Part shown: piece by piece, positions 42,978 through 57,756 of the stretch
Numbering within the stretch: the stretch's first letter is position 1
Layout of the letters: each line of letters starts with the position of its first letter
From: a virus
Virus record (IMG/VR): IMGVR_UViG_3300030060_005695
DNA length: 64,000 bases
Direction: 5' to 3' (one strand)
Translations under genes and position numbers: made by a program
Notes under the pieces: generated by a model
Seen by the model: the letters and a program-made list of their open reading frames with translations, nothing else
The model's database searches: none
Told to the model about the DNA's origin: nothing

Positions 42978-44423
42978 ATGAAAATCGAGATAACAGCAAA
43001 ACAATTAGAACTTATTAATGAGTCACTTATAAATGAAGGTGGGATTAGAGACATTAATAAGTTAGCTCAAAGATACCCAAAGGCAGAAATATATTTTCAC
43101 CAGGATTTAGATGGGGTGGTATCCGCTTTAGGGATGAAGAACTACTTAGAAAAATATGGTATAGAAGTTATCGACACCCATGTAATACAATATGGTGACA
43201 AAGAATTTTCAGTAAAAAAACCACAAGCTAGTGAAGATGTAATGCCAGTATTAGTAGATTTTGCACACGGGAAACCAATATTTAAAATCCATACAGACCA
43301 CCACGATTCACAAGCAGGGGTAGAAGATGATACTGCAACACAATTTAGAGGAGCAAGGTCAAACGTAGAAACTATTTCACAAACTATAAGTCCTAGTGAT
43401 ATTTTTACGGATGAAGATATAATGATGATTAATACTGTAGATTCTGCGGATTATGCAAAACACGATATTGAACCAGAACAAGTAATGAATCTAATTAGAG
43501 ATTTTGAATCTGGTGACCAGACTTACGAAAAAAGATGGATGTTAGGTCTTTTAACTAATAAATTATTATTAGCTTATAAAAATAAACCAGGATTCCTAGA
43601 ACATCTAGTTATGAATTCTTCACCATCCTTGATGAATATCTACCAAAACATAACCTCATACGCAAAAGAAAAAGGTTTTGCTTCACCAGAAGAAATGGCA
43701 CAAAATCAAGCAGAATATATAAAATCCCAACAAGAAAGTGATAATCTAAATTTAGATGGTAATATAATAGTACAATATGGAGGTGGTAGATTATTTAAAC
43801 CAGGTTCCTATGATAGATACACACCATTCAAAATTTATCCTGACGCTGACTTTTTTGTGGTGGCGTGGCCAATGGGACTTGTACAAGCTTCGTGTAATCC
43901 ATTCAAAAAAGACAGAGCTCTTAAAGGTGTTAACTTAGGTGATATAGCACAAGAAGTACTTAAAGAAGTGGAACCACAACTTAAAAAACACCAAGTACCA
44001 GTCTCTGTGATTAAAAGAATAGGGGAGACAAAAGCAGAAGGAGAAAGTATTGGGTTTAAAACTTCAGACTTATTCGCTCTCTATAAAGACCACCTACAAA
44101 ATATGCCATCAACAGATTCTAAATACTATGATATGGCGGTTAGTATAATTGACACACCATGGGACAAGTTGAGTGAAAAACAAAAAGCAGTTTTAGATAA
44201 GATAACTGTACCAGCTTGGGATGTTATACAAGCTAATAGTGGCGGTCACAAATGTATAACTAATATTAGTGGGTTAAATTTCTTTAGTAGAGCAACTAGA
44301 CAACCAGAAGGACCTTACAAGAAAAAATCAGACGCCAAACCAACAAGATATGTAGAATTTGTAAAATGGGTACAGAAAGAAATGGTTAAGAAAATTAAAG
44401 AAAATATAGACGCTAATCAGTAA
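42978..44423 (+). CDS. DHH-family phosphoesterase with N-terminal leader
   Basis: HQDLDG, LVDF, TDHH, C-terminal SGGH; start MKIEITAKQ at 42978. Confidence 0.8.
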   Translation: MKIEITAKQLELINESLINEGGIRDINKLAQRYPKAEIYFHQDLDGVVSALGMKNYLEKYGIEVIDTHVIQYGDKEFSVKKPQASEDVMPVLVDFAHGKPIFKIHTDHHDSQAGVEDDTATQFRGARSNVETISQTISPSDIFTDEDIMMINTVDSADYAKHDIEPEQVMNLIRDFESGDQTYEKRWMLGLLTNKLLLAYKNKPGFLEHLVMNSSPSLMNIYQNITSYAKEKGFASPEEMAQNQAEYIKSQQESDNLNLDGNIIVQYGGGRLFKPGSYDRYTPFKIYPDADFFVVAWPMGLVQASCNPFKKDRALKGVNLGDIAQEVLKEVEPQLKKHQVPVSVIKRIGETKAEGESIGFKTSDLFALYKDHLQNMPSTDSKYYDMAVSIIDTPWDKLSEKQKAVLDKITVPAWDVIQANSGGHKCITNISGLNFFSRATRQPEGPYKKKSDAKPTRYVEFVKWVQKEMVKKIKENIDANQ

Positions 44424-51820: not shown

Positions 51821-51890
51821 GCGGGTGTAGCTTAATGAAAAGCGGCATACATTCCAGTAGGTAGATGGTGATTCGTTTCACCCACCCGCT
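51821..51890 (+). tRNA. Atypical tRNA-Gly(TCC)-like RNA
   Basis: Acceptor GCGGGTG/CACCCGC + T73, D stem GCTT/AAGC, T stem GGTGA/TCACC, TCC in the anticodon loop; loops non-canonical; no encoded CCA. Confidence 0.7.
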
Positions 51891-52468: not shown

Positions 52469-52497
52469 TTGACAGACAAAAAAAATTAATATATAAT
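52469..52497 (+). promoter_or_regulatory. Promoter upstream of the TROVE gene
   Basis: TTGACA-N17-TATAAT; also fits TTG-N20-TA spacing. Confidence 0.55.
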
Positions 52498-52529: not shown

Positions 52530-53963
52530 ATGAATCTAATCGACGCTTTACAAACAAAAGACACACTGACAGAAAATGGTATGAGTACAAACTCATCCTC
52601 TTTAAATCACTGTGTCAATCTTTTTTTCCAAATCGGAGCAATGCGAGGTATGGATAAGAAGAGACTACTCGCCAAAGTCTCTAAAGCGTTTAATGAAGAC
52701 CCTCTCACAACAATTAAAATTATTTTTTGGACACGTGATGTCCGTGGTGGAGCTGGTGAGAGACAAATCTTCAGAGATTGTTTATTATGGTTATGTGACA
52801 ACCACAGAAATGTACTTAATAAAAACATTCACTTAATTAGTGAATACGGTAGATGGGATGATGTATTAACATTAGTGGGTACAATGAATTGTTGGGAATC
52901 TGCTTTACACATAATTAAAACTGCGTTAGACAAACAAGATGGGTTATGTGCAAAGTGGATGCCAAGAAAAGGACCAAAAGCGAATATTATTCGTAGGTAT
53001 TTAAAATTGTCACCCAAACAATATCGTAAGTTATTAGTAGGACTTACAAATGTGGTTGAAACCAAGATGTGTGCAAAGGACTGGTCAAGTATCGAGTATT
53101 CGAAACTTCCGTCCCTAGCATCGTCAAGGTATCAGAAAACTTTCATGAAGAATGACGAGGAGAGGTATGAGGAGTACAAAAGAGCTTTAGTTGATGGTAA
53201 AACTACCATCAACTCTGGAGCTATATACCCTTATGACATTACTAAATCCATTAAATATGGTGGAGAAAAGGATGTTGCACAAGCACAATGGGAGTCTCTT
53301 CCAAATTACATGGAAGGAATTAGTGAAAGAGTGTTACCTGTAGTTGATACCTCAGGTTCAATGACTACATCAGCAGGAAATAACGGTAAAGTTACTTGTA
53401 TGGATGTGTCAACATCATTGGGTCTGTATATCTCAGAGAGAAACGAAGGTGTATTCAAAAACACATTCATAACCTTCTCTTCGAGACCACAACTACAATT
53501 ACTTGAAGGTTCGTTAGCCGATAGGTTAGACCAACTGGAGAGAGCAGATTGGGGAATGAATACTGATTTAAAAGCAACGTTTGAGTTAATCTTGGACCAA
53601 GCAGTAAAACATAATGTTCCACTATCACAGATGCCAACCAAAGTTCTTGTCCTTTCGGATATGGAGTTTGATGAAGCAATTGGTAGTAGAATGTATGATA
53701 TATCAGATTGGAATCCAACTGCACAAGAAATGATTAAAGGGATGTATGAGGAAGCTGGTTACGAAATGCCAGGAATTGTTTACTGGAATATCCAAAGTAG
53801 ACAAGACAATGTACCAACTCGTTTCGACGAGATGGGAACAGCATTAGTATCAGGATTCTCACCCTCAATCATGAAAAGTATTTTAAGCTGTGAGGAACTT
53901 ACTCCTTATAATATGATGATGGAGACTATTGGGTCCGCTCGATACGAATCTATTACGGTCTAA
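52530..53963 (+). CDS. DUF2828 family TROVE/Ro60-like protein with C-terminal vWA domain
   Basis: TENG, RDVRGGAGER, EYGRWDD, AKWMPR, VVDTSGSM (MIDAS), WGMNTD, LSDMEFD, VSGFS. Confidence 0.88.
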   Translation: MNLIDALQTKDTLTENGMSTNSSSLNHCVNLFFQIGAMRGMDKKRLLAKVSKAFNEDPLTTIKIIFWTRDVRGGAGERQIFRDCLLWLCDNHRNVLNKNIHLISEYGRWDDVLTLVGTMNCWESALHIIKTALDKQDGLCAKWMPRKGPKANIIRRYLKLSPKQYRKLLVGLTNVVETKMCAKDWSSIEYSKLPSLASSRYQKTFMKNDEERYEEYKRALVDGKTTINSGAIYPYDITKSIKYGGEKDVAQAQWESLPNYMEGISERVLPVVDTSGSMTTSAGNNGKVTCMDVSTSLGLYISERNEGVFKNTFITFSSRPQLQLLEGSLADRLDQLERADWGMNTDLKATFELILDQAVKHNVPLSQMPTKVLVLSDMEFDEAIGSRMYDISDWNPTAQEMIKGMYEEAGYEMPGIVYWNIQSRQDNVPTRFDEMGTALVSGFSPSIMKSILSCEELTPYNMMMETIGSARYESITV

Positions 53964-54079
53964 TGGGTAGACCAAAGAATCTCTTCGGCAAATTAAACTA
54001 ACAAAGAGAGAGAGGTGGACATTATCCCCCACCTTAACGATAAAATAAACTAGGGATAAAAAATGATTCTGACTACCCA
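53964..54079 (+). ncRNA. Candidate structured RNA with pseudoknot directly after the TROVE gene
   Basis: TGGGTAG/CTACCCA and AGAATC/GATTCT closing stems; AGGTGG/CCACCT hairpin whose loop TTATCCC pairs with downstream GGGATAA. Confidence 0.6.
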
Positions 54080-54120
54080 AAAGATTAAAATTCTTCACCC
54101 CAGGGTGATTTTTATATGAA

Positions 54121-54175
54121 AGGAAGATTACTGCAATCTTTACAATTACTAAAATTAAATTGAAACCTCTTCCTG
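54121..54175 (+). ncRNA. Second candidate RNA sharing the AG-stem/TT(A)CnGCAA/stem-CTG motif
   Basis: AGGAAGA/TCTTCCT+G stem enclosing TTACTGCAA. Confidence 0.45.
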
Positions 54176-54213
54176 AGAATCCTCGTATTTAACCATACGG
54201 GGATTTTTCTTTT
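54176..54213 (+). terminator. Rho-independent terminator
   Basis: AATCCTCGTAT-TTAACC-ATACGGGGATT followed by T run. Confidence 0.75.
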
Positions 54214-54241
54214 ATGAGAATTTTTTCTATATTTATTATAT

Positions 54242-54802
54242 ATGAGAAAGTTATTAACAATATTACTAATGGTGTTGTCGTTTACATCCTATTCACAATG
54301 TGTAATTAATCAGTCACATGTTATATCTCCAGCTGGTCCTTATTCTCCAGGACAAACTGTGACAGTGTGGTATACACTACAAGATTATACCGGGATAAAT
54401 ATAAACTGGATACATGCCATCCAAATCAATCTAGGAATTGGGTGGGTGAACCTAACACCAACACAAGCTCCAGGTAATCCATTAGGCTCAACAGGTAATT
54501 GGTTGTGGGATTTACAACATACATACCCCGGAGGGTTTAACTTTGGGCCAGGTTGGAGATTTGTTAATGCAGGAACAGCTGGATGGGGAACCAGTTCTAA
54601 CGGTCCATTTATCACTAGTTTTCAAATAACAGTTGGACAAACATGTACAAACGAAGATTTAAGTATTAGTATAGAGGTTTTCGATGATTGTACAACAGGA
54701 GGTTGGGCTAACGGAAATTGTTGTAACGACCCAGCATATCAAATATACAACGGAACCGTTCAAGTAGTGATACCCACTACATCGAACATAAATCATTATT
54801 AA
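54242..54802 (+). CDS. Secreted beta-rich protein
   Basis: Signal peptide ending YSQ; C-terminus PTTSNINHY. Confidence 0.75.
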   Translation: MRKLLTILLMVLSFTSYSQCVINQSHVISPAGPYSPGQTVTVWYTLQDYTGININWIHAIQINLGIGWVNLTPTQAPGNPLGSTGNWLWDLQHTYPGGFNFGPGWRFVNAGTAGWGTSSNGPFITSFQITVGQTCTNEDLSISIEVFDDCTTGGWANGNCCNDPAYQIYNGTVQVVIPTTSNINHY

Positions 54803-54813
54803 AAAAATAAATT

Positions 54814-55353
54814 ATGAAAAGAATTTTAACAGTTTTATTAATCCTAATAGGATTAACGACTTACGGTCAAACAACAATCAACCCAGACACAGTATGTGCA
54901 AACGCAGTAGGTGAACAGTATTTTGTTACTAATACCCCTACATCAACTTATAACTGGACTATCACAGGTGGTGGTGGTGTTTTACAAACAGGACAAGGAA
55001 CCAATTCAATCACAGTAGATTGGGGAGGTGTTAGTGGACTTTTTCCAAACGCTGTTGAAGTTATTGAAACCAATGCAGCCAACTGTCCTGGAACACCCGT
55101 ATTATTAGATGTGTTTGTACTAGATTTAAATGGGAATGCAATTGGACCATTCTGTCCAGGAGACCCAACAACTCCATTAGTAGGAACACCAGCAGGTGGA
55201 ACATGGTCAGGAACAGGTGTAGTAGCAAATTCATTCCAACCATCAACAGGGGTGGGGAATTACGTATTAACTTATTCTATGGCTGGTTGTAACACAACAA
55301 TAAATGTGGTCGTTAATAACGGACCAGTTACAGGACCAATCCAACACTACTAA
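54814..55353 (+). CDS. Secreted PKD-like domain protein
   Basis: Signal peptide ending YGQ; STYNWTITGG...GQGTNSITVDW; GTPAGGTWSGTGV; ends PVTGPIQHY. Confidence 0.8.
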   Translation: MKRILTVLLILIGLTTYGQTTINPDTVCANAVGEQYFVTNTPTSTYNWTITGGGGVLQTGQGTNSITVDWGGVSGLFPNAVEVIETNAANCPGTPVLLDVFVLDLNGNAIGPFCPGDPTTPLVGTPAGGTWSGTGVVANSFQPSTGVGNYVLTYSMAGCNTTINVVVNNGPVTGPIQHY

Positions 55354-55354
55354 T

Positions 55355-55885
55355 ATGAGATGGTTAGTATATATACTACTACCACTTCAATTATTTGCTC
55401 AAGAAACTTACACTAATTGTGAGGGGATAGCACCACAAAATTATCAAGTAAGTTATGATGCGGATAAGGTATATTATTGGGATATAATAGGTGGAGAAAT
55501 ACTATACAATAATAATAATTCTATTACTGTACAATGGCCTGATTCTATAGGTACCTATATTTTATCGGTACACACAACTAGATTTGGTTGTGAAGGAGAT
55601 ACATCCTACCATGAAGTAATTGTGGAGGATTGTCCTTATCTACAAATATTTGTGCCTAACTCGTTCACACCAAACCAGGACGATTACAATGAAACATTTT
55701 ATGTTCACGGTGCTGATAAAGACGATATAGAGTTAATGGTTATATATAATAGATGGGGTGAAGTGATATATCAAACAACAGATAACATTCCATGGGATGG
55801 AAAGAATTGCCAGGTAGGGGTCTACACATACTCGATTAGGACACACAACCAACATTATACAGGACACGTTACTTTGATAAGGTAG
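55355..55885 (+). CDS. Secreted PKD-like protein with T9SS type B (gliding-motility/CHU_C) sorting domain
   Basis: IFVPNSFTPNQDDYNETF, IYNRWGEVIY, WDG, GVYTY, GHVTLIR; signal peptide ending FAQ. Confidence 0.9.
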   Translation: MRWLVYILLPLQLFAQETYTNCEGIAPQNYQVSYDADKVYYWDIIGGEILYNNNNSITVQWPDSIGTYILSVHTTRFGCEGDTSYHEVIVEDCPYLQIFVPNSFTPNQDDYNETFYVHGADKDDIELMVIYNRWGEVIYQTTDNIPWDGKNCQVGVYTYSIRTHNQHYTGHVTLIR

Positions 55886-56850: not shown

Positions 56851-57756
56851 ATGAACTTAGGATATGCTTGTATAAACATGACACTTGGGGGACAGAAACC
56901 CAAGATTACTACTAATAGGTCTATGATTAAAAAAACCTTTATAGATAGGGGTATAGACTATGCGGGAGAACTTTCCCTACTTAATTCCAGAGATTTATGT
57001 GAAATAGTAAAATGGAATGTAGAGAACGGAATTAATTTTTTTAGAATCTCTTCCGATATTTTTCCTTGGGCGTCAGAATACAACATAGAAGACCTACCTC
57101 AATATCAAAGAATCAAGACTGTTCTTTCTAGTTGTGGTAATTACGCTAGAGATAATGGTGTTAGATTAACTTCACACCCAGGACCATTTAATGTCCTGGT
57201 TTCACCCCGAGAACATGTGGTACAAAATACAATAACGGACCTAACCAACCACGGTAAGGTATTTGATTTACTGGGACTAGATAGAACACCATACAATAAA
57301 ATCAATATACATTGTAATGGTGTATATGGGGATAAACAATCTGCTCTAGATAGATTCTGTAAAAACTTTGAGTTACTTCCTGAATCAGTACAGACACGTC
57401 TTACAGTTGAAAATGATGATAAGGCAACTATGTACTCAGTAAAAGACTTAATGTATATACATGAACGTATTGGTATTCCTATTGTATTTGATTATCACCA
57501 CCATAAGTTTTGTACGGGTGACATGACAGAACAAGAAGCCCTTGAGTTAGCCATCTCTACATGGCCTAAAGGTATAACACCAGTGGTGCATTATTCAGAG
57601 TCCAAAGCTTTACACGAAAGTAATGATAAATTAAAACCACAAGCACACTCAGACTACATAAATGACCTACCAAATACATATGGTAATAAGGTAGATATTA
57701 TGGTGGAATCTAAAGCAAAAGAATTGTCTATTTTACCTCACATAAATTTAATATAG
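56851..57756 (+). CDS. uvsE: UV damage endonuclease
   Basis: LGYACIN, FFRISSD, RLTSHPG, RLTVENDD, VFDYHHH, HYSES, AHSDY, MVESKAKE. Confidence 0.95.
   Translation: MNLGYACINMTLGGQKPKITTNRSMIKKTFIDRGIDYAGELSLLNSRDLCEIVKWNVENGINFFRISSDIFPWASEYNIEDLPQYQRIKTVLSSCGNYARDNGVRLTSHPGPFNVLVSPREHVVQNTITDLTNHGKVFDLLGLDRTPYNKINIHCNGVYGDKQSALDRFCKNFELLPESVQTRLTVENDDKATMYSVKDLMYIHERIGIPIVFDYHHHKFCTGDMTEQEALELAISTWPKGITPVVHYSESKALHESNDKLKPQAHSDYINDLPNTYGNKVDIMVESKAKELSILPHINLI

What the first reader, a model, noticed from the sequence alone, without database searches (positions are those of the whole stretch)
53964..54079. H-type pseudoknot nested in a long closing stem
Seen: TGGGTAG(53964-70)/CTACCCA(54073-79) and AGAATC(53976-81)/GATTCT(54065-70) close the element. 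Inside is the hairpin AGGTGG(54013-18)/CCACCT(54029-34), whose loop TTATCCC(54022-28) is perfectly complementary to GGGATAA(54053-59). Four mutually compatible 6-7 bp helices in 116 nt of otherwise AT-rich DNA look unlikely by chance (not computed). Inference: a functional RNA such as an exonuclease-resistant element, a protein ligand or decoy, or a ribozyme.
Basis: seen in the sequence. Interest (0 to 1): 0.75.

Follow-up and report, generated by a model that had tools for sequence, protein, structure and literature searches.

The report
Y-RNA-like partner of phage Ro protein
The 116-base pseudoknotted element is real and conserved, and is most likely a non-coding RNA that partners the Ro60-like RNA-binding protein encoded just upstream; it belongs to a widespread phage RNA family that I found neither in Rfam 15 nor in the papers searched.

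Summary
All four helices lie at the stated coordinates. None of 5000 dinucleotide shuffles gives four compatible perfect helices. In 52 natural variants the pseudoknot keeps pairing through compensatory changes.

The element starts one base after the stop codon of a 477-aa DUF2828+vWA protein. Its predicted fold matches Ro60/TROVE rings, and only those, over its full length.

The inner closing stem plus the adjacent single-stranded UUCGGCAA is a diverged copy of a module. The module is a 5'-AGG stem, then WCNGCAA, a variable domain, and a stem-CCUG-3'. It flanks this gene in phages from marine Bacteroidota phages to mycobacteriophage Moostard and E. coli Felixounavirus HY02. A simple second copy lies at 54121-54174. 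The module's stem covaries strongly.

In three phages the variable domain is a YrlA-type tRNA mimic. In this element it is a hairpin plus pseudoknot.

Best reading (about 0.65): a Y-RNA-like ligand of the Ro-like protein, co-transcribed with it. No protein binding or function was shown here.

It is not in Rfam 15. Its closest Rfam look-alike is the Dictyostelium Class I RNA, below that family's threshold.

Two other first-stage notes on this same window had already proposed the Ro-like RNP reading. I tested that reading here.

The parts
52469..52497 (+). Promoter-like site, TTGACA-17-TATAAT, 12 of 12 matches, 33 nt before the Ro-like gene
   Evidence: This is a consensus match only. Its use is inferred and the host's promoter type is unknown.
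52530..53963 (+). Ro60-like RNA-binding protein gene, 477 aa, DUF2828 + DUF7788/vWA
   Evidence: Pfam PF11443 (E 8e-38) and PF25043 (E 2e-50). PHROG 850 'RNA-binding protein', E 2e-150. AlphaFold model pLDDT 78.8. The top 13 Foldseek PDB hits are all Ro60/TROVE at full length, E 1e-7 to 1e-3.
53964..54079 (+). Element 1 (the finding): a structured RNA with outer stem P1, an internal loop, module stem P2, the UUCGGCAA motif, hairpin P4 and a pseudoknot
53964..53970 (+). P1 5' strand, pairing with 54073-54079. The internal loop is 53971-75 (ACCAA) opposite 54071-72 (GA).
   Evidence: Invariant in all variants. In relative L006 the interior is deleted and P1 remains as a short hairpin.
53976..53981 (+). 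P2 5' strand (AGAAUC), pairing with 54065-54070 (GAUUCU) and followed by G54071. It corresponds to the family's AGG...CCU-G closing stem, with one G-C pair replaced by A-U.
   Evidence: Model R2 aligns 53973-54073 end to end at 7.8 bits, the second-best hit in the intergenic region.
53984..53991 (+). Single-stranded motif UUCGGCAA, a variant of the family motif WCNGCAA
   Evidence: CGGCAA is invariant except for one variant with CAGCAA.
54013..54034 (+). Hairpin P4: AGGUGG, a 10-nt loop, CCACCU
   Evidence: 98% paired across 52 variants and nearly invariant.
54023..54028 (+). Pseudoknot 5' strand in the P4 loop, pairing with 54053-54058
   Evidence: 4 of 7 tested pairs show compensatory changes. 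Slid controls pair 32-53% against 98% for the whole structure.
54095..54108 (+). Short G+C hairpin followed by a T run: a weak terminator or processing hairpin between the two elements
   Evidence: Relatives keep a hairpin here with a different sequence, for example GCGGGAAACCGC, CGCCCTAGGCG and CGTGACTTGGTCACG.
54121..54174 (+). Element 2: a simple module copy, AGGAAGA-U-UACUGCAA...UCUUCCU-G
   Evidence: R2 scores 32.8 bits, E 4e-7, the only significant hit in the window. It is the top hit of model R1, which was built without any window-group sequence, over all 64 kb with filters off. Rfam RF01414 scores 23.8 bits, E 0.03.
54175..54208 (+). Strong intrinsic-terminator-like hairpin plus T run, the likely end of the transcription unit

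Best explanation
Element 1 is a non-coding RNA that serves as a ligand of the Ro60-like ring protein encoded immediately upstream. It is the functional analogue of a Y RNA.

The gene, element 1 and element 2 are probably transcribed as one unit. That unit would run from the promoter-like site at 52469 to the terminator at 54175-54208.

The protein is proposed to recognise the closing stem P2 together with the adjacent single-stranded UUCGGCAA. The outer stem P1 and its internal loop may add to the contact or protect the ends.

The interior, hairpin P4 locked by the 6-bp pseudoknot, is the variable effector domain. It occupies the position where related phages carry a tRNA-like (YrlA-type) domain or almost nothing. 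By analogy with Ro60-Y RNA complexes, it would tether or block another factor, such as a host exoribonuclease or a host defence protein.

Shown here: the structure, its covariation, its conservation, its linkage to the gene and the Ro60 fold of the protein.

Inferred: binding, processing and the downstream effect.
For: 1. The protein has a Ro60 fold. The top 13 PDB matches are all full-length Ro60/TROVE, including the Thermus phage phiLo Ro60.

2. The element starts 1 nt after the stop codon on the same strand.

3. Among the 71-89% identical relatives, 13 carry a complete element at the same place and three more carry it cut off by a contig end. The two closing stems and their nearest flanks, including UCUCU-N-CGGCAA, are identical, while the protein differs by up to 29%.

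4. The pseudoknot covaries.

5. The module (AGG stem, WCNGCAA, CCUG) accompanies the gene at 39-89% protein identity, with wholly different stem sequences. In 28 copies, 96.4% of stem cells are paired and 5 of 7 pairs changed on both sides. The covariation score is 0.68, against 0.14 for shuffles (0 of 500 reach it) and at most 0.12 for slid controls.

6. Whole-record scans give a single hit in a 297-kb, 93%-complete relative, next to the gene. In four further records the best hit is also next to the gene.

7. Cultured phages carry the module too. Moostard has two copies in the gap after its 'Ro-like RNA binding protein' gene. HY02 has two copies in its tRNA array.

8. In Moostard, L045 and L052, a YrlA-type tRNA-like domain (RF02553, 37-39 bits, E 3e-5 to 2e-4) sits inside the same closing module, and the canonical YrlA closing stems are not matched. 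This links the module to known Y-like RNAs.

9. Published phage and bacterial Ro60 proteins bind RNAs encoded next to them that have a stem-bulge-stem anatomy (PMC4201824; PMC12135203).
Against: - No binding or expression data exist for this element.
- The canonical Ro-binding motifs (GGUCCGA; GNCGAAN0-1G) are absent. GACCAAAG is one base off.
- Rfam Y_RNA and YrlA do not match the element even at E<=10.
- R2 aligns element 1 only weakly, at 7.8 bits.
- One close relative (L006) keeps the protein and element 2 but lacks the interior of element 1, so element 1 is dispensable in at least one lineage.
- More distant homologues have the simple module but not this elaborate form.
- The protein belongs to DUF2828, not Pfam TROVE, and its RNA binding is only annotated, never tested.
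Confidence: 0.65

Rival explanations
1. A cis-acting 3' UTR element of the Ro-like mRNA. The structured block would protect the message from 3'-5' exonucleases, or would be an autoregulatory binding site for its own protein, rather than a free trans-acting RNA.
For: The element begins on the base after the stop codon, with no promoter between. One metatranscriptome contig runs from the end of the gene into a variant of the element. A pseudoknot inside a closed stem is a plausible exonuclease block.
Against: In other phages the same module lies upstream of the gene, between tRNAs, or up to 100 kb away, so it does not need to be a 3' UTR. The conserved single-stranded motif and invariant stem sequences point to sequence-specific recognition rather than a mere block. 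Bacterial Y RNAs are also cut out of co-transcripts.
Confidence: 0.15
2. An RNA that acts independently of the Ro-like protein. It could be a decoy or substrate mimic for a host tRNA- or RNA-targeting nuclease, or a processing module of tRNA-array transcripts. In that case it is linked to the gene only because both sit in the phage's RNA-metabolism region.
For: Module copies are interleaved with tRNA genes in L056, L045 and HY02. Some carry tRNA-like domains. An atypical tRNA-like gene lies 640 nt upstream in the window.
Against: In a nearly complete 297-kb genome the only copy is beside the gene. Linkage holds across hosts from Bacteroidota to Actinobacteria. The window locus has no tRNA array.
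Confidence: 0.12
3. A self-cleaving ribozyme with a pseudoknot, for example a pistol-, twister- or hatchet-like fold.
For: It has a compact pseudoknotted fold in a phage genome.
Against: No ribozyme family of Rfam 15 matched, even at E<=10 in a 361-nt search. The conserved core is shared with simple 55-nt hairpins that have no tertiary fold. Relatives tolerate 30-60-nt insertions next to the pseudoknot.
Confidence: 0.03

Closest known systems
Bacterial and phage Y RNAs (YrlA, Rfam RF02553; Yrl1/Yrl2 of Thermus phage phiLo)
   Same: They are encoded on the same strand beside a Ro60-fold gene. The 5' and 3' ends pair into a stem-internal loop-stem, a conserved sequence lies on the 5' side, and a variable effector domain fills the interior. 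In three related phages that interior is a YrlA-type tRNA mimic (PMC4201824; PMC12135203).
   Different: The partner protein is DUF2828, not Pfam TROVE. The recognition motif is WCNGCAA next to an AGG...CCUG stem, instead of GNCGAA or GGUCCGA. Element 1 has a hairpin-pseudoknot domain instead of T and D arms. No Rfam match was found.
Dictyostelium Class I RNAs (Rfam RF01414)
   Same: Both have a 6-7-bp terminal stem that covaries, a start of AAG with a conserved G pairing to the C of a 3' CUG(U), and an adjacent motif CCUUACAGCAA. The 61%-identity phage group carries CUUACAGCAA exactly. Both are about 55-60 nt with a variable A-rich remainder (PMC7919456). RF01414 was the best Rfam hit on four module copies and hit nowhere else.
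   Different: All scores (16-33 bits) are below the family's gathering score of 41.5. Class I RNAs are reported only from dictyostelids, are made from DUSE promoters and bind the RRM protein Rnp1A. No link to a DUF2828 protein is known. Element 1 itself departs further, with C instead of the conserved U3 and a 58-nt structured insert.
Metazoan Y RNAs (Rfam RF00019)
   Same: Both have a closing stem with an internal loop or bulge that serves as the Ro60 site, plus a variable loop domain.
   Different: There is no sequence or covariance-model similarity. Metazoan Y RNAs are RNA polymerase III products that end in a U tract bound by La.

Membership tests
Y RNA / YrlA (RF00019, RF02553) | Encoded near a Ro60 orthologue (within 4 kb) on the same strand | tested here: met
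   The element starts 1 nt after the stop codon of the Ro60-fold gene, on the + strand.
Y RNA / YrlA (RF00019, RF02553) | 5' and 3' ends pair into a stem-bulge-stem | tested here: met
   P1, then the internal loop ACCAA/GA, then P2. The stems are invariant, so covariation says nothing about them.
Y RNA / YrlA (RF00019, RF02553) | Ro-binding motif GGUCCGA or GNCGAAN0-1G on the 5' strand | tested here: not met
   The nearest string is GACCAAAG at 53970-77, with C where G is required (motif taken from PMC4201824).
Y RNA / YrlA (RF00019, RF02553) | tRNA-like domain (T and D arms), or a match to the covariance model | tested here: not met
   No RF02553 or RF00019 hit at E<=10. ARAGORN found nothing. 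Relatives L045, L146 and L052 do have sub-threshold YrlA hits inside the same closing module.
Y RNA / YrlA (RF00019, RF02553) | Bound by the Ro60 protein | not testable with these tools
   This needs EMSA or RIP.
Phage 'AGG stem + WCNGCAA' module family (defined here; models R1 and R2) | 6-8-bp closing stem starting (A/U)GG and ending CC(U/A), followed by G; the stem covaries | tested here: met
   Element 2 has AGGAAGA/UCUUCCU-G. Element 1 has AGAAUC/GAUUCU-G, with A-U in place of G-C.
Phage 'AGG stem + WCNGCAA' module family (defined here; models R1 and R2) | Motif WCNGCAA 1-2 nt after the 5' strand | tested here: met
   Element 2 has U-UACUGCAA. Element 1 has UC-UUCGGCAA.
Phage 'AGG stem + WCNGCAA' module family (defined here; models R1 and R2) | Significant covariance-model score | tested here: inconclusive
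   Element 2 scores 32.8 bits, E 4e-7. Element 1 scores only 7.8 bits, E 0.05 within 401 nt, in the right register but penalised for its 58-nt insert.
Dictyostelium Class I RNA (RF01414) | Score at or above the Rfam gathering threshold of 41.5 bits | tested here: not met
   Element 2 scores 23.8 bits. The best phage copy scores 33.3 bits. Element 1 gives no hit.
Dictyostelium Class I RNA (RF01414) | Terminal stem plus an 11-nt motif with conserved U3, C6, C9, A10, A11; 5' AAG and 3' CUGU | tested here: inconclusive
   Element 2 has all five conserved bases, AAG at the start and CUGA at the end. Element 1 has C at position 3 (features taken from PMC7919456).
Ro60 / TROVE protein (for the neighbouring gene) | HEAT-repeat ring plus C-terminal vWA domain | tested here: met
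   Foldseek gave full-length matches to 9kop, 9l5y, 2nvo, 1yvp and 9nen with TM 0.4-0.58. The vWA part also gave a weak PF13519 hit.
Ro60 / TROVE protein (for the neighbouring gene) | Sequence match to Pfam TROVE or to solved Ro60 chains | tested here: not met
   Pfam gives DUF2828 and DUF7788 only. phmmer against PDB found nothing. The profile search gave TROVE chains at only E 0.69.
Known self-cleaving ribozymes (Rfam) | Covariance-model match | tested here: not met
   None at the gathering score, and none at E<=10.

The most novel reading that the evidence does not exclude
The phage module and the Dictyostelium Class I RNAs are the same kind of RNA: the cognate ligand of DUF2828-type Ro60 paralogues. 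Such proteins also exist in plants, fungi and green algae.

If so, an old Ro-paralogue ribonucleoprotein spans phages and eukaryotes. The long-orphan Class I RNAs would gain a candidate protein partner.

Element 1 would then be a lineage-specific version whose pseudoknot domain replaces the tRNA mimic of YrlA.
Probability: 0.2. Interest if true: 0.85.

Novelty: new variant of a known kind. Interest (0 to 1): 0.68.

Why it matters
Ro60-Y RNA particles are a classic RNA quality-control system and a human autoantigen. Their phage versions are only starting to be studied.

The DUF2828 Ro-like protein occurs in at least 711 sequenced phages. These include Felix O1-like coliphages, Listeria, Staphylococcus and Campylobacter phages, and mycobacteriophages. 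A Ro60-like protein in the Felix O1-like coliphage Bas63, probably the homologue of the window's gene, was reported to counter the Ppl defence system (PMC11482910). That report only guessed at its RNA partner.

A defined RNA signature beside the gene gives that field concrete candidates to test in tractable hosts. It suggests that the recognition module is constant and the effector domain is swappable. It also offers a testable link to Dictyostelium Class I RNAs.

Tried and rejected
- Rfam at gathering scores on the whole window found nothing. This scan even missed a tRNA-like gene that scores above threshold in a small-region scan.
- ARAGORN found nothing.
- Rfam at E<=10 on 53900-54260 gave no Y_RNA, YrlA or ribozyme hit on element 1.
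- Model R1 with default filters missed element 2. It was found only with filters off.
- A crude regex for the module over the whole window gave many chance matches in AT-rich DNA and was dropped in favour of covariance models.
- The third nested helix proposed by RNAfold (UCUCUU 53980-85 / AAGAGA 54004-09) overlaps P2 and would bury bases next to the motif. Both of its strands are almost invariant, so it could be neither supported nor excluded. I treat it as an alternative.
- The window's own assembly is not held. The nearest record, G001, is a 19%-complete fragment with no hit, which is uninformative.
- Metatranscriptome contigs from four studies cover the gene but not 54038-54260 at 90% likeness or above. 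Contigs cannot show ends or levels, and DNA carry-over is possible.
- I looked for a Dictyostelium DUF2828 protein. The Atlas search returned only viral clusters. The 'longer' protein search returned plant, fungal and algal homologues but no amoeba. A follow-up search with the algal protein returned almost nothing.
- The paper naming the Class I pull-down proteins is not held. The preprint names GuaB, NdkC, DDB_G0281243 (function unknown) and CIBP, and nothing more could be found on DDB_G0281243.
- Literature searches for DUF2828, PF11443 and 'Ro-like' with mycobacteriophage found no description of these RNAs.

Full report
THE OBSERVATION

The native 116 nt contain five perfect Watson-Crick helices of at least 6 bp, four of them mutually compatible. 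In 5000 dinucleotide-preserving shuffles none reached four and only 70 reached three. Nested folding gives a modest z-score of -2.7 on either strand, which is expected because the pseudoknot is invisible to it.

THE CONTEXT

The element begins on the base after the TAA stop codon of a + strand ORF (52530-53963, 477 aa).
- The protein carries Pfam DUF2828 and DUF7788 and a weak vWA signal.
- It belongs to PHROG 850, 'RNA-binding protein'.
- Sequence searches against solved structures find nothing significant.
- An AlphaFold model built on 17 homologues has pLDDT 78.8 and pTM 0.73.
- That model matches Ro60/TROVE proteins, and only those, over its full length. The matches are Thermus phage phiLo Ro60, Deinococcus Rsr, and Xenopus and human Ro60, with E from 1e-7 to 1e-3. 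Isolated vWA domains follow.

The neighbour is therefore a Ro60-fold protein.

Around the gene:
- A 12-of-12 sigma-70-type promoter match lies 33 nt before it.
- A weak terminator-like hairpin follows the element.
- A strong terminator closes the non-coding block at 54175-54208.

RELATIVES OF THE ELEMENT

A protein-based scan of IMG/VR gave 58 loci. Of the 17 relatives with 71-89% protein identity, 13 carry the complete element at the same place, with identical closing stems. In three more a contig end falls inside or before it. L006 lacks the interior, and only P1 is left there as a short hairpin.

A pattern scan of metagenomes added 86 loci and brought the total to 53 distinct variants. They fall into three size classes:
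- 116-119 nt;
- 149-164 nt, with one extra hairpin;
- 172-175 nt, with two extra hairpins.

The inserts all lie between the 3' strand of the pseudoknot and the 3' strand of P2.

Counting pairs on 52 variants gave these results:
- The pseudoknot is 94% paired, and four of its seven pairs changed on both sides.
- The seventh pair is not conserved.
- The whole structure pairs 98% of cells, against 32-53% when partners are slid by 1-3 columns.
- P1 and P2 never vary. In the metagenome set this follows from the search pattern, but it also holds in the protein-selected set.
- U-G wobbles in the pseudoknot fix the strand as +.

THE WIDER FAMILY

Downstream of the element there is a second conserved unit at 54121-54174: AGGAAGA, one base, UACUGCAA, an A-rich stretch, UCUUCCU, then G.

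Scanning the flanks of all homologous genes showed the same anatomy almost everywhere, at 39-89% protein identity. The anatomy is (A/U)GG-stem, 0-2 nt, W-C-N-GCAA, 25-140 nt, then stem-CC(U/A)-G. The stems are completely different between groups, for example GGUUCC/GGAACC, GGAUCG/CGAUCC, GGUUUAU/GUAAACC, GGAUGCG/CGCAUCC and GGUUAAU/AUUAACC.

Two covariance models tested this.
- R1 was built without any sequence from the window's group. With filters off, it ranked element 2 first in the whole 64-kb window on both strands.
- In 28 copies aligned to R1, the stem is 96.4% paired and 5 of 7 pairs changed on both sides. The covariation score is 0.68, against 0.14 in shuffles (0 of 500 reach it) and at most 0.12 in slid controls. 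That alignment was fitted to the model, which favours it somewhat.
- R2, built from those 28 copies, scores element 2 at 32.8 bits (E 4e-7), the only significant hit in the window.
- R2 has a single hit in a 297-kb, 93%-complete relative, and that hit is beside the gene. In four other records its best hits are also beside the gene.

Cultured phages have the module too.
- Mycobacteriophage Moostard has two copies in the 382-nt gap after its 'Ro-like RNA binding protein' gene.
- E. coli Felixounavirus HY02 has two copies in the tRNA array that follows its homologue.
- tblastn finds the protein in 711 phage records.

ELEMENT 1 AS A MEMBER OF THE FAMILY

P2 (AGAAUC/GAUUCU, then G) together with UC-UUCGGCAA matches the module.
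- One G-C pair is replaced by A-U.
- G sits at the variable motif position. One natural variant has CAGCAA there.
- With filters off, R2 aligns 53973-54073 end to end in exactly this register. It is the second-best hit in the intergenic region, but it scores only 7.8 bits because of the 58-nt insert.

Element 1 is therefore best described as a module copy with two additions: an outer stem P1, and a structured interior made of P4 plus the pseudoknot.

THE LINK TO Y RNAS

Published bacterial and phage Y RNAs have three features (PMC4201824; PMC12135203):
- they are encoded beside Ro60 on the same strand;
- their ends form a stem-bulge-stem that carries a conserved motif (GNCGAA or CGAA);
- many (YrlA) have a tRNA-like interior.

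An E-value Rfam scan of nine loci gave sub-threshold but significant YrlA hits next to the gene in L045, Moostard and L052, at 37-39 bits and E 3e-5 to 2e-4. In each case the tRNA-like T, acceptor-like and D arms lie inside the module described above. In Moostard the arrangement is UGGACCCC, C, ACAGCAA, the tRNA-like domain, GGGGUCCA, GU. The canonical YrlA closing stems are not matched there.

The picture is a constant closing module with a swappable interior. That interior is almost nothing in element 2, a tRNA mimic in those three phages, and a hairpin with a pseudoknot in element 1.

FUNCTION

Binding was not tested here. By analogy with Ro60-Y RNA particles, the ring protein would hold the closing module and the interior would engage another factor.

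A preprint reports that the Ro60-like gp130 of the Felixounavirus Bas63 counters the Ppl defence system. That gene lies directly upstream of the tRNA array, and the authors guess that some of the 'tRNAs' are Y RNAs (PMC11482910). The position of the HY02 homologue matches, so it is probably the same gene. I did not verify this.

Metatranscriptome contigs from four studies cover the gene. One of them runs from the end of the gene into a variant of element 1. This is only a weak hint of co-transcription.

THE DICTYOSTELIUM RESEMBLANCE

The only Rfam family that hits module copies is RF01414, Class I RNA.
- It scores 23.8 bits on element 2 (E 0.03) and 16.4 bits in L026.
- It scores 33.3 and 32.5 bits in L056 (E 0.02-0.03 in a 61-kb search).
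- All of these are below the gathering score of 41.5. The family hit nowhere else.

The published features of Class I RNAs are also those of the phage module (PMC7919456):
- a covarying 6-bp terminal stem;
- a start of AAG whose G pairs with the C of a 3' CUGU;
- the adjacent motif CCUUACAGCAA, with conserved U3, C6, C9, A10 and A11;
- a length of about 60 nt.

DUF2828 proteins exist in plants, fungi and green algae. I could not establish whether Dictyostelium has one. One Class I pull-down protein, DDB_G0281243, has no known function. This remains a lead, not a finding.

VERDICT

- The most likely role is a Y-RNA-like ligand of the adjacent Ro60-like protein (about 0.65).
- It fails the membership tests for YrlA, Y RNA and Class I RNA, but it works like a Y RNA.
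- I file it as a new variant of a known kind.
- Two other first-stage notes on this window had already suggested the Ro-like RNP reading. The tool evidence here supports them.

Noticed in passing
window 51821-51890 (+): An atypical tRNA-like gene about 640 nt upstream of the Ro-like gene. Rfam tRNA scores 36.4 bits (gathering score 29) in a small-region scan, yet ARAGORN and the whole-window gathering scan both missed it. The T loop is one base short and the D loop lacks GG.
   Followed up: partly
window 52469-52497 (+): A perfect 12-of-12 E. coli-type sigma-70 promoter match before the Ro-like gene. This is odd for a phage whose neighbouring genes carry Bacteroidota T9SS sorting domains.
   Followed up: no
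L006 4432-4500: A close relative (86% protein identity) has the interior of element 1 cleanly missing. P1 is left as a short hairpin (UGGGUAG-UACAA-CUAUCCA) and element 2 is kept. This suggests the interior is gained or lost as a cassette.
   Followed up: partly
L018, L020, L026-L033, L038, L039: about 20-380 nt after the gene: The 61%-identity group has a conserved non-coding block of about 360 nt. It holds a module copy with the exact 10-mer CUUACAGCAA, a second GGUACAGCAA, and further on GGAUGGGUCGAAG. The last string fits the published YrlA Rsr-site motif GNCGAAN0-1G. The block ends in a terminator.
   Followed up: partly
L056 745-2990 and 6847-7110: At least six module copies are interleaved with tRNA genes upstream of the Ro-like gene. 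A group I intron (RF00028, 57 bits) sits in the downstream tRNA array.
   Followed up: partly
L004, L073, L082, L133: the extra hairpin inside element 1: In part of the 149-164-nt size class (these four loci), the loop of the extra hairpin can pair with a downstream stretch, and the pairing covaries (GAAAUC/GAUUUC, GAAAUU/AAUUUC). This may be a second pseudoknot. The L008-type variants do not show it.
   Followed up: partly
record of L021 (handle G005): 44241-44304 (-): A second good module hit (35 bits, E 1.5e-7) lies about 100 kb from the Ro-like gene in a 234-kb phage record, so not every copy is adjacent to the gene.
   Followed up: no
window 54242-55885 and 56851-57756: A cassette of small secreted-looking proteins includes a PKD-like domain and a CHU_C type IX secretion sorting domain, which points to a Bacteroidota host. 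A UvdE UV-damage endonuclease gene follows.
   Followed up: no
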